Assembly: GCA_000990585.1 (NCBI GenBank)
Contig: LBQD01000001.1
Coordinates: 1-60,964 of the forward strand
Length of the DNA stretch: 60,964 bases
DNA from: Candidatus Moranbacteria bacterium GW2011_GWE2_35_2-
Lineage (GTDB): Bacteria; Patescibacteriota; Minisyncoccia; Moranbacterales; UBA9337
Direction: 5' to 3'
The notes beneath the pieces are model-generated. The model saw only the letters and a program-made list of their open reading frames with translations. It was not told the DNA's origin and made no database searches. Positions 16,843-25,604 of the stretch are shown here, one piece after another (position 1 is the first letter of the stretch; the number at the start of each line of letters is the position of its first letter). Made by a program: the position numbers and the translations under genes.

Positions 16843-18987
16843 ATGGCTCAAAACAAGAAGGGAGCGAAAAAGGGGAAAAGCTCGAAAATAAAAAAAGTTG
16901 AAAAAAAATCGTTGAAAAAAACGGGTAAAAAGTTTTCCGTAAAGAATAAGAAAACGGGAAAAATAACCAAAGTTATTAAAAGAAGTGGAAAAATTGTTCC
17001 GTTTAAGGCGGAAAAAATAGTAATAGCGGTATCAAAGGCTTTTTCGGAAACGGGAGAAGGCGGAGAAAAAGAAGCAAAAAAAATTTCCAGTAAAGTTGCG
17101 CAACTTTTAGGAAAAAATCGTCAGAAAGGATATATTCCGGAAATTGAAGAGATTCAGGATATAGTGGAGAAAGTTTTGATGATTTTGGATTTTGAGGAAA
17201 CAGCTAAGGCATATATTCTCTATCGCGAACAGCATCGAAAAATCAGGGAAACAGAAGAGGCACTCAAAGAGGCGGTGGATTTGATTGATAATTATATTCA
17301 AGAAGCGGATTGGAGAGTGAAGGAAAATTCCAATATGGGTTTTTCACTTCAAGGGATGAATAATTTTATTTCTTCCGTAGTGAGTTCACGTTATTGGATG
17401 GACAGGGTGTATACAAAAGATATTCAACAAGCTCACGAAAGAGGCGATTTGCACGTGCATGATTTGCAGATGGTAGCGGCATATTGTTGCGGATGGGATT
17501 TACATGATCTTTTAATGCGAGGTTTCGGAGGAGTGCCGGGAAAAGTTTCTAGTGCGCCACCAAAACATTTTCGCAGCGCCTTGGGGCAGATGGTTAATTT
17601 CATCTATACTTTGCAGGGAGAAGCTAATGGAGCGCAAGCATTTGCTAATTTCGATACTTTGTTGGCGCCGTTTATTCGTTTTGATAAGTTGAACCAAAAA
17701 GAGATTAAACAAGCGTTGCAAGAATTTGTTTTTAATATGAATGTTCCGACGCGCGTCGGGTTTCAAACGCCATTTTCCAATATTACCTTGGATTTGCAAG
17801 TTCCCTCTACATATAAAAACGAATCGGTAATAATTGGTGGAAAACCGCAAAAAGAAAAATACGGTGATTTTCAGAATGAAATGAATATGATTAACAAGGC
17901 GTTTGCGGAAGTGATGAGCGAAGGAGATGCGCAAAATCGAGTATTTACTTTTCCAATTCCAACTTATAATATTACCAAAGACTTTGATTGGAACGACCGG
18001 GCACTTAATCCGATTTGGGAAATGACTGCCAAATACGGAATGCCATATTTTGCAAATTTTGTCAACTCGGATATGAGTCCAGATGATGCTAGAAGTATGT
18101 GTTGCCGACTCAGATTGGATAATCGTGAGCTAAATAAGCGCGGTGGAGGACTTTTTGGAGCTAATCCGATGACGGGTTCTATCGGAGTGGTAACTATTAA
18201 TATGCCAAGAATCGGGTATTTGGCAAAAGATGAAAAAGATTTTTTTCAAAGATTGGATTATTTGATGGATTTGGCGAAAGAAAGTTTGGAAACAAAAAGA
18301 AGATTTATTGAAAAATTAACCGAAACAGGACTTTATCCATATTCTAGGTATTATTTGAAATCCATCAAACAGCGGCGAGGCAGTTATTGGGGAAATCATT
18401 TTTCAACTATCGGTTTAGTGGGAATGAACGAGGCATTGGAGAATTTGATTGGAGAAAAAATAGTTACCAAAAAAGGAAATAAATTGGCGCAGAAAATTTT
18501 GGAACATATGCGAAAACGTATGGTGAAATATCAAAAGGAAACCGATAATATGTATAATTTAGAGGCTACTCCAGCGGAAGGCACAACCTATCGTTTGGCA
18601 AAATTGGATCAAGCGAAATATTCGAAGATAAAATTTGCCAATGATAGCGCGGTGAAGGAAAATGGGGCGGAGCCGTATTATACCAACTCTTCCCAACTTC
18701 CAGTGGGATATACCAGTGATATTTTCGAAGCATTGGAATTGCAAGATAATTTGCAGACAAAATATACCGGCGGAACGGTGTTGCATGGATTTTTAGGGGA
18801 AAAAATAAATGATATTGAAGTAGTAAAGAATTTAGTAAAAACTATTGCTACCAAGTATCATTTGCCGTATTTTACTTTTACTCCAACTTTCAGTATCTGT
18901 CCCGAACACGGGTATTTATCCGGAGAGCATCACACTTGTCCGAAATGCGCGATTAAATTGGCACAGGTGAAGTTTGAAAAAGCATAA
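16843..18987 (+). CDS. nrdD: Anaerobic ribonucleoside-triphosphate reductase NrdD, large piece (lacks the glycyl-radical loop)
   Basis: Lys-rich N-terminal tail, ATP-cone, 'CCRLRLD', 'GGGLFGANPMTGSIGVVTINMPR', 'NLEATPAEG'. Ends 'FSICPEHGYLSGEHHTCPKCA...' without an RVxGY motif. Confidence 0.92.
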   Translation: MAQNKKGAKKGKSSKIKKVEKKSLKKTGKKFSVKNKKTGKITKVIKRSGKIVPFKAEKIVIAVSKAFSETGEGGEKEAKKISSKVAQLLGKNRQKGYIPEIEEIQDIVEKVLMILDFEETAKAYILYREQHRKIRETEEALKEAVDLIDNYIQEADWRVKENSNMGFSLQGMNNFISSVVSSRYWMDRVYTKDIQQAHERGDLHVHDLQMVAAYCCGWDLHDLLMRGFGGVPGKVSSAPPKHFRSALGQMVNFIYTLQGEANGAQAFANFDTLLAPFIRFDKLNQKEIKQALQEFVFNMNVPTRVGFQTPFSNITLDLQVPSTYKNESVIIGGKPQKEKYGDFQNEMNMINKAFAEVMSEGDAQNRVFTFPIPTYNITKDFDWNDRALNPIWEMTAKYGMPYFANFVNSDMSPDDARSMCCRLRLDNRELNKRGGGLFGANPMTGSIGVVTINMPRIGYLAKDEKDFFQRLDYLMDLAKESLETKRRFIEKLTETGLYPYSRYYLKSIKQRRGSYWGNHFSTIGLVGMNEALENLIGEKIVTKKGNKLAQKILEHMRKRMVKYQKETDNMYNLEATPAEGTTYRLAKLDQAKYSKIKFANDSAVKENGAEPYYTNSSQLPVGYTSDIFEALELQDNLQTKYTGGTVLHGFLGEKINDIEVVKNLVKTIATKYHLPYFTFTPTFSICPEHGYLSGEHHTCPKCAIKLAQVKFEKA

Positions 18988-19034
18988 ACGCAAATAAATA
19001 AATTTATATAATTAAAAAGTAAAAACAAAAATAT

Positions 19035-19337
19035 ATGGAAGACAAAAAATTGATTTGTCATGATTGCGGGAAAAAACTTCAAAAAGGGGAAGAGTATGTT
19101 AATTATACTCAAGACGAAAAAAATTATTTGGTGAAATGTCGTGAGTGCTATGAAAAAAATCCGGTAATGGAAAATTATCAACCTTGCGATGTGTATTCTC
19201 GCGTAGTCGGGTTTCACACTCCGATCAACCGTTGGAATAAAGGCAAGGTAGCGGAATGGGAGGATCGCAAGACGTTCGAAGTGGAGAATAAAAAAGAAGA
19301 TGAATGTGATGGGGATTGCAGCAAGGGCTGTTGCTAG
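19035..19337 (+). CDS. Stand-alone NrdD C-terminal module: zinc ribbon plus glycyl-radical loop
   Basis: 'CHDCG...CREC' followed by 'VYSRVVGFHTPINRWNKGKVAEWEDRKTF', the class III RNR glycyl-radical signature; Cys-rich tail 'ECDGDCSKGCC'. Confidence 0.8.
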   Translation: MEDKKLICHDCGKKLQKGEEYVNYTQDEKNYLVKCRECYEKNPVMENYQPCDVYSRVVGFHTPINRWNKGKVAEWEDRKTFEVENKKEDECDGDCSKGCC

Positions 19338-19466
19338 TTTAGTTACGTTGTAAAAAAAGGATAGAGGGGTGATTCCATTTAAAACTGGGATCGCCCTAAT
19401 TTTAAACAATTTGAAATTTATAATTTTCAATGAATTTTAATTGATTAAGTTTTAAATTAAAAATTT

Positions 19467-20165
19467 ATGGTGTTAGGTGGTTTCGAGAAATTTACAATGG
19501 TGGATTATCCAGGGAAATTAGCGACAACTGTTTTTACGGTTGGATGCAGTTTTCGCTGTCCTTTTTGTCATAATCCAGAATTTGTGGAACATGGAACATG
19601 GAATATGGAACATGGAATAATAGAGAAGAGTTTTTTTGAGTTTTTAGAAAATAGGAAGGGGAAGCTGGAAGCGGTTTGTATTACCGGAGGAGAACCGACG
19701 ATTCAACCGGATTTAATTTCTTTTATTGAGAAAATAAAAAAAATGGGATTTTTAGTTAAATTGGATTCCAATGGTACGCGTCCGGATGTTTTGAAAAAGA
19801 TAATTGACAGAAAAATTGTAGATTATATTGCGATGGACATTAAAAATATTCCGGAAAAATATAGTGAAACGGCAGGAGTAAAGGTGGATATAGAAAGAAT
19901 AAAGTTGAGTGTAAAATTAATAATAAACAGCAGAATTGACTATGAATTTCGTACCACAGTAGTGCCGGGGTTTCATAATGAAAAAGATTTTGAGAAAATT
20001 TCCGAATGGATTGATGGTGCGCGTGCTTATTTTCTGCAAGAATTTCGAGATTTCAAAGTTCTTGATTTGCAGATAGAAGAAAAGACGCAAGGAAAAAAAG
20101 TAGATTTGGAAAAAATAAAAAATAAAATAGGGGGAAAGTTTGGAAAAATAGGAATAAGGAGATAA
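19467..20165 (+). CDS. nrdG: Anaerobic RNR activating enzyme (radical SAM)
   Basis: 'DYPGKLATTVFTVGCSFRCPFCHNPE' (CxxxCxxC), 'ITGGEP'. Confidence 0.9.
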   Translation: MVLGGFEKFTMVDYPGKLATTVFTVGCSFRCPFCHNPEFVEHGTWNMEHGIIEKSFFEFLENRKGKLEAVCITGGEPTIQPDLISFIEKIKKMGFLVKLDSNGTRPDVLKKIIDRKIVDYIAMDIKNIPEKYSETAGVKVDIERIKLSVKLIINSRIDYEFRTTVVPGFHNEKDFEKISEWIDGARAYFLQEFRDFKVLDLQIEEKTQGKKVDLEKIKNKIGGKFGKIGIRR

Positions 20166-21290: not shown

Positions 21291-21731
21291 TTGTCAATAA
21301 TCGGCGTGAAAAAAGTAAAAAATTGGAAAAAACAGGCAAAAGAAGTTTTTTTTAAATATGAATTGAAAATTGTAGTGTTTTTGGGAATGGTTTTAGTGGC
21401 CGTCATTTCATTTGAAATGGGTATTTTGCAGGGTCAAAAGTGGCAACAAGAACCGATGATTGTTGAGGTTCCGGCGGTAGCAGTGGCGGGTGGACAATCT
21501 GATTCGGAAATTAATGATGGCGCGAAAGAGGTCGAGAATAACAATCAGCAAGACGCGGGAAATGAAAATTTGGAAAAGTGCCTTTTTGTGGCAAGCAAGA
21601 ATTCAGACAAATATCATCCGGCGACAAATTGTCGTTGGGCAGACCAAATAAAAAAGGAAAACAAGGTTTGTTTTTCTAGCGAGCAAGAAGCGGAAAACAA
21701 GGGTTATGTGAAGTCAAGTTGTTTCAAATAG
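21291..21731 (+). CDS. Membrane-anchored protein with a C-terminal Ada-Zn-binding-like ('sunset'-type) domain
   Basis: One TM; C-terminal 'NSDKYHPATNCRWADQIKKENKVCFSSEQEAENKGYVKSSC'. Start codon uncertain (TTG 21291 or GTG 21306). Confidence 0.6.
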   Translation: MSIIGVKKVKNWKKQAKEVFFKYELKIVVFLGMVLVAVISFEMGILQGQKWQQEPMIVEVPAVAVAGGQSDSEINDGAKEVENNNQQDAGNENLEKCLFVASKNSDKYHPATNCRWADQIKKENKVCFSSEQEAENKGYVKSSCFK

Positions 21732-21743
21732 CTTCAAAGGTCG

Positions 21744-21773
21744 GCATTTGACCGCAAGGCGGTAATTGGATAA
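21744..21773 (+). repeat. 30-bp direct repeat, copy 1 (promoter-like TTGACC-17-TAAGAT)
   Basis: 'gcatttgaccgcaaggcggtaattggataa'; 28/30 identical to 22130-22159. Confidence 0.85.
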
Positions 21774-21779
21774 GATTTA

Positions 21780-22116
21780 GGCAAAATAGTTCTTCATTAG
21801 AGGTGAGAAGATGAAAACAAGAAAAGGTAGTCCAGCGGAAAAACTCGGGATTGATTTTAGCGGTAATCCTGATGTAAAGAACGATGACAGTAGGGTGTAG
21901 GGTTTTCATGCAATATTGGATTCTCCCGGGCGCCATCTCGTAGGAGGCTTGAGCGGGGTAAGGATCGGACATAATATGTGCACCTCAACCTTAGAGTTGG
22001 ATGGTGGTGTTCCAAGCGACGAGGAGATGTTTGATCTTCTCTCGACTAGACCGCAGTGCTCGGAAATTTAGTTCTTGCTGGTAAGGGGATGTGTTGAAGA
22101 ACCCATCCCTTTTTTA
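21780..22116 (+). ncRNA. Candidate structured RNA or leader of unknown class upstream of tyrS
   Basis: GC clearly above the surroundings. Starts after promoter-like repeat copy 1 and ends at a 9-bp stem plus T6 terminator (22083-22115). Long-range stem 21805-21818/21902-21925 and an alternative GTTCTT/AAGAAC pairing. Confidence 0.5.
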
Positions 22117-22129
22117 TTTGGATAATTAA

Positions 22130-22159
22130 GCATTTGACCGCGAGGCGGTAATCGGATAA
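22130..22159 (+). repeat. 30-bp direct repeat, copy 2 (promoter-like TTGACC-17-TAAACT, immediately upstream of tyrS)
   Basis: 'gcatttgaccgcgaggcggtaatcggataa'. Confidence 0.85.
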
Positions 22160-22171
22160 ACTTTAATTATT

Positions 22172-23377
22172 ATGGATAAAAAAGAACTTGAAAAAAAGGT
22201 GGATGAAATTTTGGAACGCGGGGTTTTGGTGGAATTTTTGCCGACTAAAAAAGAATTTCGAGAGAAATTGCTTTTTGGTGAAAAGCTTCGATTTTATATC
22301 GGCGCCGATCCAACCGCTAAAGCGCTTCATTTGGGGCACGCGCAAAATTTGATGATATTGGAAGATTTTCGAAAGTTGGGACACGAAGTGATTTTTCTTA
22401 TCGGAGATTTTACGGGAATGATTGGAGATCCGACTGATAAAGGCGCGGCTAGGGTGCGGCAGACGCGAGAAGGTGTTGAGGAGAATTTCAAGAATTGGCT
22501 TGAGCAAACGAAAAACATTCTTTCTTTTGATGATAAAGATAATCCGGTAAAAGTAAAATATAATTCCGAGTGGCTTTCTAAATTGAATTTCGAGCAAGTG
22601 ATTGATATTGCTAGTAATTTTACGGTCCAGCAAATGCTTGAGCGGGATATGTTTGAAAATAGAATGAAGGAAGGAAAGCCGATTCATTTGCATGAATTCT
22701 TGTATCCTTTGATGCAGGGATATGACAGTGTGGCAATGGATGTGGATGTGGAGCTTTGTGGAACTGATCAGATTTTCAACGCGTTGGCCGGAAGAACTTT
22801 GATGCAAAAAATCAAAGGCAAAGACAAGTTTGTGATTTCTGCCAAATTGATTGCTGATGAGAAAACCGGAATGTTGATGTCAAAATCCAATGGAACCGGA
22901 ATTTTTCTTGATTTGGATTCCAATGATTTGTTTGGAGCGATTATGTCTCAACCGGATGGAATGATTCATCCCTTGCTTTTGGGCTGTACAAGAATTTCTT
23001 TGGATGAAATCAAAGAGTTGATGAAATTGGAAAATCCGCGGGATGCGAAGGTGCGGTTGGCGCATGAGATTGTGAAAATTTATCATGGGGAAGAAAAATC
23101 CCAAGAAGCGGAAGAATATTTTGTGAATACTTTTTCTAAAAAAGAAATTCCGGAGGAAGTGCGAGAGGTGAAAGCAGGAGGAGATATAAATTTTATTGAT
23201 TTTTTGGTTTTGGCAAATGTGGCAACAAGCAGAGGGGATGCGCGCCGGAAAATCGAACAAGGCGGAGTTTCAATTGAGGGTGAAAAAATAACAGACCCGA
23301 ATAAAGTTTTAGATATTTCTTTTTCCGGAAAAATAATCAAAGTTGGCAAAAAAGATTTTGTGAAAATAGTTTTTTAG
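22172..23377 (+). CDS. tyrS: Tyrosyl-tRNA synthetase (short type with C-terminal S4 domain)
   Basis: 'YIGADPTAKALHLGHA' (HIGH), 'YPLMQGYDSVAMDVDVELCGTDQIFN', 'MSKSNG' (KMSKS-like), C-terminal S4-like 'SRGDARRKIEQGGVSIEGEKI'. Confidence 0.88.
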   Translation: MDKKELEKKVDEILERGVLVEFLPTKKEFREKLLFGEKLRFYIGADPTAKALHLGHAQNLMILEDFRKLGHEVIFLIGDFTGMIGDPTDKGAARVRQTREGVEENFKNWLEQTKNILSFDDKDNPVKVKYNSEWLSKLNFEQVIDIASNFTVQQMLERDMFENRMKEGKPIHLHEFLYPLMQGYDSVAMDVDVELCGTDQIFNALAGRTLMQKIKGKDKFVISAKLIADEKTGMLMSKSNGTGIFLDLDSNDLFGAIMSQPDGMIHPLLLGCTRISLDEIKELMKLENPRDAKVRLAHEIVKIYHGEEKSQEAEEYFVNTFSKKEIPEEVREVKAGGDINFIDFLVLANVATSRGDARRKIEQGGVSIEGEKITDPNKVLDISFSGKIIKVGKKDFVKIVF

Positions 23378-23424
23378 ATTAAGTATCTTGGTTTTTAATT
23401 TCAGGATGATAGAATAATGCAAAT

Positions 23425-23850
23425 ATGAAGTTTTTATTTGATTGGCTTAAAAATATATTGTCCAGTGAAAAACTGGTCGCAAAAGAAACCGGAAAGCCGG
23501 CGATTGGTTTTGAAAATGTTGTGGTGGGAAGAATTTTGGAAATCCAAAAACATCCAAATGCTGATAGGCTGCAAATTACAAAAACAGATGTCGGCGGAGA
23601 AATTTTACAAATTGTGTGTGGCGCAAAAAATATCGAAGTTGGACAAAAGGTTCCGGTTGCGTTGGTTGGCGCAAAACTTCCGAATGGATTAGAGATAAGA
23701 GAAACCCAGATTCGCGGAGAAAAATCTTTCGGGATGTTGTGCGCCAAGGACGAGTTAGGTTTGGGGGATGATCATTCCGGAATTTTTATTCTGGATAAAA
23801 ACGCCGAAGTTGGAATGAAATTTGCAAAATATATCAATTTAAATAAATAA
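23425..23850 (+). CDS. Stand-alone PheT N-terminal (B1-B2) tRNA-binding domain protein
   Basis: 'MKFLFDWLKN', 'VVVGRILEIQKHPNADRLQITKTDVG...IVCGAKNIEVGQKVPVALVGAKLP', 'IRGEKSFGMLCAKDELGL' match the start and OB-fold of the bacterial PheRS beta subunit. Only 141 aa. Confidence 0.85.
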   Translation: MKFLFDWLKNILSSEKLVAKETGKPAIGFENVVVGRILEIQKHPNADRLQITKTDVGGEILQIVCGAKNIEVGQKVPVALVGAKLPNGLEIRETQIRGEKSFGMLCAKDELGLGDDHSGIFILDKNAEVGMKFAKYINLNK

Positions 23851-23871
23851 CTCAGTGAAGTAAATAAAAAT

Positions 23872-25014
23872 ATGCGAAAGATTGTTATTGAGGATCCAAA
23901 TGAAAAAGCTTTGATCGAAGAAGTAAATAAAAGAAGCGATATTAAGGCTGAGCGTATAAAAAGATTTGTAGCCTTGCCTGATCTGACAAAAAAAGATAAC
24001 TCGCCTATAAAAATTTTAGTTGACCAGATTTTGAGTCTTCCGAGATTTGCCAATTTTGATATCGTTGAAATTCCCAAAATAACAACAGTGGAAAGAGAGT
24101 TTGATATTTTGAATTCTCCCAAAGATCATCCTTCACGCAAAGAAACCGACACTTTCTTCTTAGATAATACAAATCATTTGCGCACCCAGATGACAGTGAT
24201 GTGGTCATATTATCTGACTAACAAAGAAATTCTGGAAAAACTCGAGCGAGATGGAGAGGTTATGGCGCTTGCGCCAGGTCTTGTTTATAGAAAGGATGAG
24301 ATAGACAGGAAACATTTTCCAGCATTCCATCAGATTGATGGTCTTTTGCTCTGCAAGAAAGACAAAAAAATAATAACGCTGGATGATTTGAAAGAAGTGG
24401 AGATAGAGATGACAAAAAGCATTTTCGGAGAAAATATAGAATATAGGTTTTTAGTCGATGCTTTTCCTTTTACTGATCCATCTGTTCAAATTGAAATGAA
24501 GTTTAATGATGACTGGATCGAGGTTGTCGGTTCTGGCTTGGTGCATCCTCAGGTATTAAGAAATTTAAATATTGATCCGGAGGTTTATAATGGTTGGGCA
24601 TTCGGCTTTGGAATAGAGAGATTGGCTATGGTCAAATTCGAGATACCGGATATTCGAATTTTTTGGTCGAATGACGAAAGGATTACAAGCCAATTCAAGG
24701 ATATCAATAGCAAGTTTACCGAGGTTAGCAAATTTCCCGCAACCATCAGAGACATCTCGTTTATCATTGATAAAGATATAAATATTAATAATTATTATGA
24801 AATTGTTCGAGATTATGCGGACAATCTGATCGAGGAGGTGAAACTTTTGGATGAATATGAAAATGATGAAAAGTTCGGTAAAAACAAAAAAAGCTACACC
24901 TTCCGTATCGTTTATCGTTCATCTGAAAGAACTTTGACCAACGAAGAAATCAATGAAATACAGGCGAAGATCCGCGCAAAAACTGAAAAGGAACTGGAAG
25001 CTTTATTGAGGTAA
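23872..25014 (+). CDS. pheS: Single-chain PheRS: alpha-type catalytic core fused to a C-terminal FDX-ACB (B8) anticodon-binding domain (mitochondrial FARS2-like architecture)
   Basis: 'DHPSRKETDTF', 'LVYRKDEIDRKHFPAFHQIDG', 'FPFTDPS', 'GWAFGFGIERLAM..EIPDIRIFWSNDERITSQF', then 'SKFPATIRDISFII...YTFRIVYRSSERTLTNEEI'. Confidence 0.88.
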   Translation: MRKIVIEDPNEKALIEEVNKRSDIKAERIKRFVALPDLTKKDNSPIKILVDQILSLPRFANFDIVEIPKITTVEREFDILNSPKDHPSRKETDTFFLDNTNHLRTQMTVMWSYYLTNKEILEKLERDGEVMALAPGLVYRKDEIDRKHFPAFHQIDGLLLCKKDKKIITLDDLKEVEIEMTKSIFGENIEYRFLVDAFPFTDPSVQIEMKFNDDWIEVVGSGLVHPQVLRNLNIDPEVYNGWAFGFGIERLAMVKFEIPDIRIFWSNDERITSQFKDINSKFTEVSKFPATIRDISFIIDKDININNYYEIVRDYADNLIEEVKLLDEYENDEKFGKNKKSYTFRIVYRSSERTLTNEEINEIQAKIRAKTEKELEALLR

Positions 25015-25056: not shown

Positions 25057-25145
25057 TTTGACAAAACGTGTAAAAAGTATTATTATTGTTTGGACGTATT
25101 AAGTTAAGTATTGTTTGATACATTGAAAATTTTGCTTTATATCAA

Positions 25146-25549
25146 GGTAAATCGGGCAATTGCTCTGCTGATGTTTTGCATTGGCGGAGAGGAAAGTCCG
25201 GACATTCCCCTGGTTTTATACTAGGGAGCAGGGTAGCGGCTCCGACGCTCGAAAGGGTGCGGAGTTCCGACATTGAAAAATCGTCGGAGGTAATGCCCGT
25301 CATGGGGAAACCCAAGAGGTGCGAGCAGAGACGTTTTATTTCGAAAGAAATAAAATATCCCCCTCACGAGGGATAAGCTCTTATAGTAATATAAGAGGTG
25401 AAACGGCTAAATCCTTACCTGAATGCAAGGTCGTACTCTGACGTTATGTCAGGGGGTGCCGCTTGACTCCGACGGTAACGTCGGAGCTAGATAAATGATT
25501 GCCACTCCGACCTTGCGTCGGAGGACAGAATCCGGCTTATAGATTTGCC
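25146..25549 (+). ncRNA. rnpB: RNase P RNA (bacterial type)
   Basis: 'gagaggaaagtccggac' (CR-I), 'acagaatccggcttat' (CR-V), P1 pairing 25146-25153 with 25541-25549. GC-rich island in an AT-rich context; TTGACA-17-TATTAT at 25058-25086 upstream. Confidence 0.9.
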
Positions 25550-25604
25550 TTGGTATGAAGTTGAATTTTTGTTGAAAGTATTTGTGGTGTATAATAGAAA
25601 TAAT

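What the first reader, a model, noticed from the sequence alone, without database searches (positions are those of the whole stretch)
23425..25014. Mitochondrial-type single-chain PheRS plus an orphan PheT N-terminal tRNA-binding module
Canonical bacterial PheRS is an (alpha-beta)2 enzyme with a roughly 800-aa beta subunit. Here the 380-aa CDS at 23872-25014 joins two parts:
- An alpha-type catalytic core, with motif 2 'YRKDEIDRKHFPAFHQIDG', motif 3 'GFGIERLAM' and 'DIRIFWSNDERITSQF'.
- A C-terminal ferredoxin-fold anticodon-binding (B8/FDX-ACB) domain, with 'SKFPATIRDISFII...YTFRIVYRSSERTLTNEEI'.

This is the domain layout, and even the local motif style, of human and yeast mitochondrial PheRS (FARS2).

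Immediately upstream (21-nt gap) is a 141-aa protein corresponding only to the B1-B2 start of PheT (MKF..WLK, OB-fold 'HPNADRL...VCGAKN'). No B3/4 editing domain is present in the window. This implies a minimal, probably editing-deficient PheRS with a possible trans-acting tRNA-binding helper.
Basis: partly seen in the sequence, partly recalled or inferred. Interest (0 to 1): 0.75.

Follow-up and report, generated by a model that had tools for sequence, protein, structure and literature searches.

The report
One-piece mitochondrial-type PheRS in CPR bacterium
This ultra-small (Patescibacteria/CPR) bacterium encodes its phenylalanine-tRNA charging enzyme as one short chain, the form known from mitochondria, instead of the textbook two-subunit bacterial enzyme; a leftover tRNA-binding piece of the lost large subunit sits just upstream as a separate small gene.

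Summary

**The 380-aa ORF (23872-25014)**
- It carries a class-IIc PheRS catalytic core plus a C-terminal FDX-ACB domain.
- It keeps the Phe-pocket and ATP motifs.
- Its AlphaFold model (pLDDT 95) superposes on human mitochondrial PheRS in the closed form (TM 0.78-0.80).

**The 141-aa ORF (23425-23850)**
- It is a free-standing PheT B2 OB-fold, 48% identical to E. coli PheT B2 (rmsd 1.5 Å), with a vestigial B1 tip.

**Wider context**
- No B3/4, B5 or B6/7 sequence is found in the window or within ±10 kb in 42 related loci.
- The organism is a Parcubacteria-type CPR bacterium. The single-chain enzyme is widespread there (43-99% identity in the loci fetched).
- It forms its own clade (95% bootstrap).
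- That clade groups with eukaryotic mitochondrial PheRS, huge-virus copies and the 'SrmL' paralog. Canonical PheS falls outside this group (99.5% for the catalytic domain, 91% for FDX-ACB, NJ trees).
- The B2 gene occurs only in one sublineage. In every context examined it lies directly upstream of the PheRS gene, usually in a tyrS-B2-pheRS cluster.

**Not tested**
- Whether a canonical pheS/pheT exists elsewhere in this genome.
- Monomeric state.
- Lack of editing.
- The helper role of B2.

I found no paper describing this enzyme in bacteria.

The parts
23872..25014 (+). Single-chain PheRS ('PheRS1'), 380 aa: short N-terminal helices, class-IIc catalytic module, hinge, and a C-terminal anticodon-binding domain
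   Evidence: ORF. Pfam tRNA-synt_2d plus FDX-ACB. Best PDB sequence hit is human mt PheRS at 198.7 bits, against 161 bits for E. coli PheS. AF2 pLDDT 95.2, pTM 0.90. Foldseek top hits are 5mgw and 3cmq, TM 0.78-0.80.
23986..24696 (+). Catalytic module (aa 39-275). Contains motif 2 (24286-24342), the FPFT Phe-ring clamp (24463-24474), motif 3 GWAFGFGIERLAM (24592-24630) and the C-terminal DIRIFWSNDERITSQF hinge lead-in (24649-24696).
   Evidence: Pfam PF01409, 198 bits. Motif positions. The alignment shows the canonical PheS and mt PheRS signature residues retained, whereas SrmL has HPYT in place of FPFT.
24727..25011 (+). FDX-ACB (PheT-B8-like) anticodon-binding domain, aa 286-380
   Evidence: Pfam PF03147, 91.3 bits. 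Matches pheT_bact profile positions 681-798. In an NJ tree the single-chain FDX domains split from four canonical PheT B8 domains with 91% bootstrap.
23425..23850 (+). Free-standing PheT-derived tRNA-binding protein ('B2p'), 141 aa: a vestigial B1 N-terminal peptide (aa 1-~29) plus a B2 OB-fold (aa ~30-131; 23518-23817)
   Evidence: Pfam tRNA_bind, 77 bits. pheT_bact positions 40-157 at 153 bits; YtpR 131.5 bits (cut-off 100); TapR 61 bits (cut-off 120). PDB: E. coli and Salmonella PheT residues 39-154 at 107-108 bits. AF2 core pLDDT 83-96 in blocks, N-terminal 29 aa below about 50. Foldseek: E. coli PheT B2, rmsd 1.5 Å, 48% identity. In the 26-sequence family alignment, 35 columns are invariant and the N-terminal W7 and K9 are conserved in at least 90% of sequences.
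22172..23377 (+). tyrS (bacterial-type TyrRS with S4-like C-terminal domain). Probable first gene of a tyrS-B2p-pheRS1 transcription unit.
   Evidence: Pfam tRNA-synt_1b plus SYY_C-terminal plus S4. The same gene order is seen in L001, L006, L008, L010, L014, L021, L031 and. No terminator-like site lies in the two intergenic gaps (23378-23424, 23851-23871).
22134..22162 (+). Promoter-like site (TTGACC-17-TAAACT) just upstream of tyrS, preceded by a terminator-like hairpin plus T-run at about 22083-22118. A weak consensus match only.
   Evidence: Scan; sequence read.

Best explanation
**What the 380-aa gene encodes.** It encodes the housekeeping phenylalanyl-tRNA synthetase of this Parcubacteria-type CPR bacterium, in the single-chain 'mitochondrial' (PheRS-M) form.
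- One polypeptide carries the class-IIc catalytic module. This module activates Phe with ATP. F198/F200 of FPFT and A243/G245 of motif 3 would shape the Phe pocket, and R140 and R250 would bind ATP.
- After a hinge comes a ferredoxin-fold domain homologous to PheT B8, which reads the GAA anticodon.
- As in human mt PheRS, the resting enzyme is predicted to be closed. It would have to swing the anticodon-binding domain open to accept tRNA-Phe.
- No B3/4 editing domain lies in the chain or nearby, so Tyr and m-Tyr would be rejected only at the synthetic site.

**What the 141-aa gene encodes.** It lies 21 nt upstream and is the surviving N-terminal piece (B1 tip plus B2 OB-fold) of a lost PheT. 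In this sublineage it is most likely retained as a trans-acting tRNA-binding accessory co-expressed with the synthetase.

**Shown here:** domain content, active-site conservation, predicted fold, clade membership, gene-order conservation.

**Inferred:** monomeric state, being the only PheRS in the genome, absence of editing, the hinge mechanism, and the helper role of B2p.
For: **Architecture and fold**
- Architecture.
- Human mt PheRS is the best sequence match (198.7 bits against 161 for E. coli PheS).
- It is also the best fold match. The closed forms 3cmq and 5mgw give TM 0.78-0.80 and rmsd about 3 Å. The open tRNA-bound form 3tup gives TM 0.59.
- The model is high-confidence.

**Active site**
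- FPFT, the motif 2 Arg, HQxDG and GWAFGxGxER are all retained.
- The H-to-Q change in LRTQMT also occurs in a canonical Lachnospiraceae PheS.

**Distinct from SrmL**
- The window protein scores 241 bits against a cut-off of 300.
- True SrmL proteins score 400-415 bits and have HPYT in place of FPFT.
- One genome (L026) carries both PheRS1 and an SrmL.

**Strong purifying selection**
- The protein is 73-99% identical among the top 120 hits.
- In the same genome pairs it is more conserved than TyrRS: L010 74% against 49%, L014 73% against 43%, L021 75% against 46%.

**Housekeeping neighbourhood**
- L27, greA, tyrS and rnpB lie nearby here.
- leuS or valS lies directly downstream in relatives.

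**No PheT core**
- None was found in the window or within ±10 kb in 42 related loci.

**Phylogeny (NJ, 200-300 bootstraps)**
- Single-chain proteins against canonical PheS (including three CPR canonical PheS): 99.5%.
- CPR clade: 95%.
- FDX-ACB against four canonical B8 domains: 91%.

**B2p**
- It is the closest thing to a true PheT B2.
- It lies 4-21 nt upstream of PheRS1 in every context examined.
- The pairing persists where tyrS is 1.9 kb away (L049) or absent within 10 kb (L002).
Against: - Genome-wide absence of canonical pheS/pheT was not tested; only 61 kb of this genome is visible.
- Other Patescibacteria, including some labelled Parcubacteria or Moraniibacteriota, do have canonical pheS-pheT (Minisyncoccus, PMC10936435 supplement). 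Many CPR PheT proteins lack B2 (PMC5370408). A B2-less PheT elsewhere in this genome is therefore conceivable.
- The window protein falls below NCBIfam's curated cut-offs for pheS_mito (238.5 against 258.35) and pheS (179.5 against 237.45).
- B2p is absent next to PheRS1 in 33 of 43 genome loci, so the enzyme does not need it in general.
- B2p's position after tyrS also fits a TyrRS-linked role.
- The trees are simple NJ trees on 225 and 98 columns. Shared loss of the beta-subunit interface could pull single-chain proteins together artificially.
Confidence: 0.75

Rival explanations
1. PheRS1 is an extra paralog. A canonical (possibly B2-less) alpha/beta PheRS elsewhere in the genome does the housekeeping, and the single-chain enzyme has a specialised or redundant role.
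For: - Canonical pheS-pheT loci exist in other Patescibacteria and in cultured Minisyncoccus.
- CPR PheT often lacks B2 (PMC5370408), which would fit a separately encoded B2.
- PheS-family paralogs do occur in these genomes (SrmL in L026).
Against: - PheRS1 is more conserved than TyrRS in the same genome pairs and keeps a full PheRS active site.
- No canonical PheS or PheT was found in the 61-kb window or in 42 related loci of up to about 21 kb.
- None of the B3_4-bearing PheT fragments lies on a contig whose length matches a PheRS1 contig, whereas several B2p hits do. This is a weak test.
Confidence: 0.18
2. The 141-aa B2 protein is not a PheRS1 helper. It either serves the upstream TyrRS (like NCBIfam 'TapR' or the B2-TyrRS fusions of some CPR), or it is a general Trbp111/YtpR-like tRNA-binding protein.
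For: - tyrS lies directly upstream here and in most relatives.
- B2 is fused to TyrRS and to LysRS in other CPR (PMC5370408).
- It passes the YtpR cut-off (131.5 bits against 100).
- Stand-alone tRNA_bind proteins such as Trbp111 and YgjH appear among the fold matches.
- Most PheRS1 lineages lack B2p.
Against: - The TapR score of 61 bits is below the cut-off of 120.
- The B2p-PheRS1 gap is always 4-21 nt, whereas the tyrS-B2p spacing varies: four ORFs intervene in L049, and no tyrS lies within 10 kb in L002.
- Its sequence is closest to authentic PheT B2 (48% identity to E. coli).
- It keeps the PheT N-terminal 'WLK' peptide under selection.
Confidence: 0.3
3. The 380-aa protein is not a tRNA-Phe synthetase at all, but a PheS-derived ligase of another function, like the related 'mystery ligase' SrmL.
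For: The top NCBIfam hit by score is SrmL (241.2 bits), and no equivalog cut-off is passed.
Against: - It scores below the SrmL cut-off, while true SrmL proteins score 400-415 bits.
- It forms a separate clade (SrmL 100%, CPR 95% bootstrap).
- SrmL has an altered Phe-pocket and motif 2 loop, whereas the window protein keeps the PheRS residues.
- Close CPR relatives pass the pheS_mito cut-off: P0241 at 264 bits and L033 at 265 bits.
Confidence: 0.04

Closest known systems
Mitochondrial PheRS (human FARS2, yeast MSF1; 'PheRS-M'; PDB 3CMQ, 3TUP; TIGR00469)
   Same: - One chain with a PheS-type catalytic module plus a C-terminal FDX-ACB (B8-like) domain.
- No N-terminal coiled coil and no editing domain.
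- The predicted fold superposes on the closed human enzyme (TM 0.78-0.80).
- About 45-50% identity (my reading of the printed alignment, not a computed figure) over residues 171-367.
- Same clade in both domain trees.
   Different: - Encoded by a bacterium, with no targeting peptide.
- Lacks the insertion in the catalytic module that splits the eukaryotic matches into two stretches.
- Forms a separate, well-supported CPR clade (95%).
- Scores just below the eukaryote-trained TIGR00469 cut-off (238.5 against 258.35).
- In this sublineage it is paired with a free-standing B2 gene.
Canonical bacterial (alpha-beta)2 PheRS (PheS TIGR00468 plus PheT TIGR00472; e.g. E. coli 3PCO, T. thermophilus 1PYS)
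   Same: - The catalytic residues and motifs of PheS.
- An anticodon-binding domain homologous to PheT B8.
- B2p homologous to PheT B2 (48% identity to E. coli).
   Different: - No Phe_tRNA-synt_N coiled coil.
- No B3/4 editing domain, B5, or B6/7 catalytic-like module.
- B8 is fused to the alpha-type core, and B2 is a separate 141-aa protein encoded upstream rather than downstream.
SrmL, 'PheS-related mystery ligase' (NCBIfam NF051887)
   Same: - Same two-domain single-chain layout.
- Found in the same bacterial group (L026 carries both).
- Part of the same single-chain clade.
   Different: - SrmL has HPYT instead of FPFT and a changed motif 2 loop and motif 3.
- The window protein scores 241 bits against the cut-off of 300.
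- SrmL is a distinct clade (100% bootstrap).
Stand-alone tRNA_bind/OB proteins (Trbp111, YgjH, YtpR, CsaA) and the B2-aaRS fusions of CPR bacteria (PMC5370408)
   Same: - A free or appended EMAP-II-like OB-fold that binds tRNA.
- B2p passes the YtpR HMM cut-off.
- Structural matches to 3bu2, 3ers and 8vtz.
   Different: - B2p is far closer to genuine PheT B2 than to Trbp111 or CsaA.
- It lacks the YtpR N-terminal domain (it matches only profile positions 71-185).
- It carries a PheT B1 N-terminal remnant.
- It is tightly linked to a single-chain PheRS gene.
Single-chain PheRS genes of huge phages and giant viruses (IMG/VR contigs)
   Same: Same catalytic core plus FDX-ACB layout, about 340-380 aa, 32-42% identical to the window protein.
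   Different: - Viral context.
- They group with the eukaryotic mitochondrial branch, not the CPR clade, in the NJ tree.

Membership tests
Mitochondrial-type single-chain PheRS (PheRS-M / TIGR00469) | One polypeptide with a class-IIc PheS-type catalytic module followed by a C-terminal FDX-ACB (B8-like) domain | tested here: met
   Pfam PF01409 at aa 39-275 (198 bits) plus PF03147 at aa 286-380 (91 bits)
Mitochondrial-type single-chain PheRS (PheRS-M / TIGR00469) | No PheS N-terminal coiled-coil domain and no B1-B7 modules in the chain | tested here: met
   No PF02912, PF03483, PF03484 or PF17759 hit. Canonical CPR PheS proteins do show PF02912.
Mitochondrial-type single-chain PheRS (PheRS-M / TIGR00469) | Score at or above the curated TIGR00469 cut-off (258.35 bits) | tested here: not met
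   238.5 bits. The model was trained on eukaryotes. CPR clade-mates P0241 (264.3 bits) and L033 (265.2 bits) do pass.
Mitochondrial-type single-chain PheRS (PheRS-M / TIGR00469) | Three-dimensional similarity to solved mt PheRS across both domains | tested here: met
   AF2 pLDDT 95.2. Foldseek 5mgw and 3cmq: TM 0.78-0.80, rmsd 3.1-3.4 Å over about 390-407 columns.
Mitochondrial-type single-chain PheRS (PheRS-M / TIGR00469) | Shares the fused ancestor with mt PheRS, meaning both domains cluster with mt PheRS to the exclusion of PheS and PheT-B8 | tested here: met
   NJ bootstrap 99.5% for the catalytic domain and 91% for FDX-ACB. The method is simple, so an ML test is still needed.
Mitochondrial-type single-chain PheRS (PheRS-M / TIGR00469) | Conserved Phe- and ATP-binding residues of PheRS | tested here: met
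   FPFT, R140, HQIDG and GWAFGFGIER are retained.
Mitochondrial-type single-chain PheRS (PheRS-M / TIGR00469) | Active as a monomer, charging tRNA-Phe without a beta subunit | not testable with these tools
   Needs biochemistry (SEC-MALS, aminoacylation assays).
Mitochondrial-type single-chain PheRS (PheRS-M / TIGR00469) | It is the only PheRS of its compartment or genome (no canonical pheS/pheT alongside) | not testable with these tools
   Only the 61-kb window and ±10 kb of relatives could be searched, with none found.
Canonical bacterial PheS (TIGR00468) | Score at or above 237.45 bits and presence of the N-terminal Phe_tRNA-synt_N domain | tested here: not met
   179.5 bits; no PF02912; outside the canonical PheS group in the tree.
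SrmL, PheS-related mystery ligase (NF051887) | Score at or above 300 bits, plus the SrmL-type pocket (HPYT, altered motif 2 loop) | tested here: not met
   241.2 bits. The window protein has FPFT, not HPYT. SrmL forms a separate clade at 100%.
PheT, bacterial PheRS beta subunit (TIGR00472), for the 141-aa protein | Full B1-B8 architecture, score at or above 402.65 bits | tested here: not met
   153.2 bits, covering only profile positions 40-157 of 798.
YtpR family tRNA-binding protein (NF045760), for the 141-aa protein | Score at or above 100 bits over the full-length model, including the N-terminal domain | tested here: inconclusive
   131.5 bits passes the cut-off, but only profile positions 71-185 of 185 match, so the YtpR N-terminal domain is absent.
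TapR, TyrS-associated PheT N-terminal domain-related protein (NF045867), for the 141-aa protein | Score at or above 120 bits; adjacency to tyrS | tested here: not met
   61.2 bits. tyrS adjacency is present here, but it is looser than the link to PheRS1 in relatives.

The most novel reading that the evidence does not exclude
The fusion of a catalytic module to a B8 domain that defines mitochondrial PheRS (FARS2/MSF1) would not be a eukaryotic invention. It would have arisen once, and is shared by a large bacterial radiation (Parcubacteria-type CPR), their SrmL paralogs, huge phages or giant viruses, and mitochondria. On this reading, early eukaryotes acquired their mitochondrial PheRS by horizontal transfer from a CPR-like bacterium or a virus, rather than by remodelling the alphaproteobacterial pheST. 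A whole branch of Bacteria would then translate Phe codons with a monomeric, editing-free enzyme.
Probability: 0.3. Interest if true: 0.8.

Novelty: new member of a known kind. Interest (0 to 1): 0.6.

Why it matters
**Textbook expectation.** From my own knowledge of the field, and from PMC3275996 and PMC11580382: textbooks and aaRS classifications treat bacterial PheRS as an (alpha-beta)2 enzyme, and treat the monomeric catalytic-core-plus-B8 chimera as a mitochondrial speciality. This window shows that a widespread bacterial lineage carries that form as a highly conserved, apparently housekeeping gene.

**If it is the sole PheRS, four things follow.**
1. It gives a prokaryotic relative for asking where FARS2 came from.
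2. It adds a natural case of a bacterium without PheRS editing, relevant to how far quality control can be stripped in reduced genomes.
3. It offers a compact, single-gene bacterial PheRS for engineering.
4. It affects annotation and completeness scoring:
   - JGI labels the two genes 'alpha chain' and 'beta chain'.
   - NCBI often labels the enzyme 'hypothetical protein'.
   - The protein fails the TIGR00468 and TIGR00472 cut-offs, so marker sets relying on pheS/pheT models would miss it. As I recall, GTDB bac120 includes both models; I did not verify this here.

Tried and rejected
1. **A series of free-standing B1-B2-B3/4 trans-editing proteins.** One search listed many 190-370-aa 'PheT N-terminal' proteins in Patescibacteria. 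Context look-ups showed that these are fragments of canonical pheT, cut by contig ends or split by frame changes. Each sits downstream of a canonical pheS. The idea was rejected.

2. **A B2-PheRS1 fusion protein (Rosetta stone).** Long representatives had no tRNA_bind domain. None was found.

3. **tRNA-Phe genes, to compare identity elements.** None were found in the window or in 47 loci.

4. **T-box or another leader upstream of tyrS.** There was no Rfam match.

5. **Literature.** Nine full-text searches combined PheRS, monomeric and mitochondrial terms with CPR, Patescibacteria and Parcubacteria terms, and also tried SrmL, TapR, YtpR and pheT. None returned a paper describing a bacterial single-chain PheRS. 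The nearest was PMC5370408, on B2 fusions and B2-less PheT in CPR.

6. **Whole-genome test for pheS/pheT.** This was not possible. Matching contig lengths between hit lists gave only a weak negative.

7. **Deep relationships among the CPR, SrmL and mitochondrial/viral groups.** Unresolved, with bootstrap support of 58% or less.
Full report
**Observation.**
- The two ORFs are real and sit at the stated coordinates. ORF 23425-23850 (+) encodes 141 aa and ORF 23872-25014 (+) encodes 380 aa, separated by 21 nt.
- All quoted motifs are present.
- In the 380-aa protein, Pfam finds tRNA-synt_2d at aa 39-275 (198 bits) and FDX-ACB at aa 286-380 (91 bits). In the 141-aa protein it finds tRNA_bind at aa 32-131 (77 bits).
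- I probed the window with a full-length canonical PheT from a Lachnospiraceae locus. It matched only the small ORF (PheT residues 44-170) and the C-terminus of the large ORF (PheT residues 663-800). Nothing corresponded to B3/4, B5 or B6/7.
- The other long ORFs in the window are NrdD, DnaK, a class-A PBP, FtsA and similar proteins, and none is PheT.

- The window is bacterial and AT-rich (about 36% GC). It carries the 3' end of 23S rRNA, a 5S rRNA and RNase P RNA.
- Close homologues of both proteins come from Patescibacteria/CPR MAGs labelled Moranbacteria, Staskawiczbacteria, Taylorbacteria, Paceibacteria and Parcubacteria.
- The gene directly upstream of the small ORF is a bacterial-type tyrS (22172-23377).
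- No terminator-like site lies in either intergenic gap (tyrS to B2p, B2p to the PheRS gene). A promoter-like site precedes tyrS, and a strong one precedes rnpB downstream.
- The likely transcription unit is therefore tyrS-B2p-pheRS1. This is an inference.

**What the 380-aa protein is.**
- By sequence, its best solved relative is human mitochondrial PheRS, matched over both domains at 198.7 bits. E. coli PheS scores 161 bits over the catalytic domain only.
- An AlphaFold2 model built on a 48-sequence alignment is very confident (pLDDT 95.2, pTM 0.90).
- By Foldseek its best PDB matches are the closed form of human mt PheRS (5mgw, 3cmq), with TM 0.78-0.80 and rmsd about 3 Å over the whole chain. 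The open, tRNA-bound form (3tup) matches only domain by domain, with TM 0.59.
- The active site is that of a genuine PheRS. The FPFT clamp, the motif 2 Arg with the HQxDG segment, and motif 3 GWAFGxGxER are all retained.
- The lineage-specific LRTQMT, in place of LRTHTS, also occurs in a canonical Lachnospiraceae PheS.
- NCBIfam places the protein between two models without passing either cut-off. SrmL ('PheS-related mystery ligase') gives 241 bits against a cut-off of 300. pheS_mito gives 238.5 bits against 258.35.
- True SrmL proteins score 400-415 bits, carry HPYT instead of FPFT, and form a separate clade. One genome (L026) encodes both an SrmL and a PheRS1.
- CPR clade-mates P0241 and the Harrisonbacteria copy (L033) do pass the pheS_mito cut-off.

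**Distribution and phylogeny.**
- The word-indexed search scored 8,000 candidates and found more than 4,700 hits at E ≤ 0.001. That total also includes more distant PheS-family proteins. The top 120 are all 367-406 aa with the same two domains and are 73-99% identical to the window protein.
- A scan of one genome per GTDB species returned 42 loci with the single-chain gene. Their labels include Moran-, Staskawicz-, Paceibacteria, Jorgensen-, Harrison- and Zambryskibacteria.
- In matched genome pairs, PheRS1 is more conserved than the adjacent TyrRS, for example 74% against 49% in L010. This fits an essential role.
- The exhaustive representative search produced a diverse set. Within it I could identify four groups:
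  - eukaryotic mitochondrial enzymes from Schizosaccharomyces, Allomyces, chytrids, Salpingoeca, a fern and a locust;
  - viral copies;
  - SrmL proteins;
  - canonical PheS proteins.
- NJ trees with bootstraps gave the following support values:

| Split | Support |
|---|---|
| All single-chain proteins against canonical PheS, including three CPR canonical PheS (catalytic domain) | 99.5% |
| CPR PheRS1 clade | 95% |
| SrmL clade | 100% |
| All single-chain FDX-ACB domains against four canonical PheT B8 domains, two of them CPR | 91% |

- The CPR FDX-ACB domain is 36% identical to the mitochondrial/viral group and 25% identical to canonical B8.
- Both domains therefore point to a single fusion ancestor shared by the CPR, SrmL, viral and mitochondrial enzymes.
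- The branching order among these groups is unresolved, with support of 58% or less.
- These are simple distance trees and need ML confirmation.

**What the 141-aa protein is.**
- Its OB-fold core is closest to authentic PheT B2. It scores 107-108 bits against E. coli and Salmonella PheT residues 39-154. The model superposes on E. coli PheT B2 at rmsd 1.5 Å with 48% identity.
- The first 25-30 residues keep the PheT N-terminal 'MKxxxxWLK' peptide. W7 and K9 are conserved in at least 90% of the 26 family members aligned. This segment is modelled with low confidence.
- The protein passes the YtpR HMM cut-off, but only over the C-terminal OB part of that model. It fails the TapR cut-off and the full PheT cut-off.
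- The family is small, with about 470 homologues, and is restricted to one sublineage. It is adjacent to PheRS1 in 10 of 43 genome loci, all among the closer relatives (73-99% identical), although other loci of similar identity (L004, L005, L007) lack it.
- Wherever I looked, it lies 4-21 nt upstream of PheRS1.
- tyrS is usually, but not always, immediately upstream. In L049 it is separated by four ORFs, and in L002 it is absent within 10 kb.
- The tighter link is therefore to PheRS1.
- Its nearest full-length relatives are N-termini of canonical Patescibacteria PheT, at 54-69% identity. This fits a remnant of an ancestral pheT.

**Mechanism (inferred).**
- The single chain activates Phe and transfers it to tRNA-Phe.
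- The FDX-ACB domain reads the anticodon after a hinge opening, like that documented for the human enzyme. The model is in the closed state.
- No editing module is present, so fidelity would rest on the synthetic site.
- B2p most likely supplies extra, non-specific tRNA affinity in trans in this sublineage. That would compensate for the lost PheS coiled coil and the lost beta subunit.
- A TyrRS-linked role or a general tRNA-chaperone role remains a serious alternative.

**What is not established.**
- I could not search the rest of this genome.
- Canonical pheS-pheT operons clearly exist in other Patescibacteria and in cultured Minisyncoccus, whose PheT is 681 aa and lacks B2 (supplement of PMC10936435). 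Replacement is therefore lineage-specific, and coexistence in this genome is not excluded.
- Monomeric state, lack of editing and the B2p function all need experiments.

**Novelty.**
- The architecture is that of a known enzyme class, so this is a new, bacterial member of a known kind.
- Database curators evidently know related proteins. NCBIfam has the SrmL model, and some NCBI records name the protein 'Phenylalanine--tRNA ligase'.
- Nine full-text searches found no paper describing a single-chain PheRS in bacteria or its relation to FARS2.
- Current aaRS classifications list PheRS-M only with FARS2 (PMC11580382).

Noticed in passing
L055-L095 (IMG/VR), L044 8001-9065, L053 8001-9047: Single-chain (catalytic core plus FDX-ACB) PheRS genes occur on 41 viral contigs, many of 200-536 kb, plus two giant-virus MAGs. 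In two contexts examined the gene lies in a region of mostly unannotated genes that includes a PcfJ-like gene, directly upstream in L053 and about 5 kb downstream in L044. In the NJ tree the viral copies group with eukaryotic mitochondrial PheRS, not with the CPR clade.
   Followed up: partly
L026 17943-19040 (-): A second PheS-plus-FDX-ACB gene lies about 7 kb from PheRS1 in the same Patescibacteria genome. It is a true SrmL 'mystery ligase' (400 bits against a cut-off of 300), with HPYT replacing the FPFT Phe clamp. Its substrate is unknown.
   Followed up: partly
L051 5001-6877; L052 5001-7425; L054 6001-8246: In three independent Patescibacteria contigs the canonical pheT is split into two adjacent or overlapping ORFs in different frames, inside the B3_4 domain. 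The first parts are 334, 298 and 261 aa. Many 260-340-aa 'tRNA_bind plus B3_4' proteins appear. These could be real split genes or assembly frameshifts.
   Followed up: no
window 23425-25014 and homologues P0013, P0122 and others: JGI annotation names the 141-aa B2 protein 'phenylalanyl-tRNA synthetase beta chain' and the single-chain enzyme 'alpha chain'. NCBI often names the enzyme 'hypothetical protein'. KEGG-style inventories would therefore wrongly report a canonical alpha/beta PheRS in these genomes.
   Followed up: no
window 21291-22120: A 146-aa ORF with no Pfam hit is followed by about 390 nt of non-coding sequence ending in a terminator-like hairpin (about 22083-22118), with no Rfam match. 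The closest relative (L001) has a gap between L27 and tyrS that is about 420 nt shorter, so this stretch looks like an insertion.
   Followed up: partly
window 25144-25555 (and 25058-25086): Bacterial class-A RNase P RNA (115.5 bits) lies 129 nt downstream of the PheRS gene. A near-consensus promoter-like site (TTGACA-17-TATTAT) precedes it. The listed TTG start of the next ORF (25545) overlaps the 3' end of the RNA, so that start is probably called too far upstream.
   Followed up: no
L001, L006, L009, L013 and others (record titles): Several MAG records that carry this Parcubacteria-type locus are titled 'uncultured Bdellovibrionales bacterium' or 'uncultured Candidatus Saccharibacteria'. 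These labels do not fit the Moranbacteria- or Staskawiczbacteria-like gene content and look unreliable.
   Followed up: no
window 16843-20165: An anaerobic ribonucleotide reductase NrdD (714 aa, with an ATP-cone) and its radical-SAM activase lie a few kb upstream, consistent with an anaerobic lifestyle.
   Followed up: no
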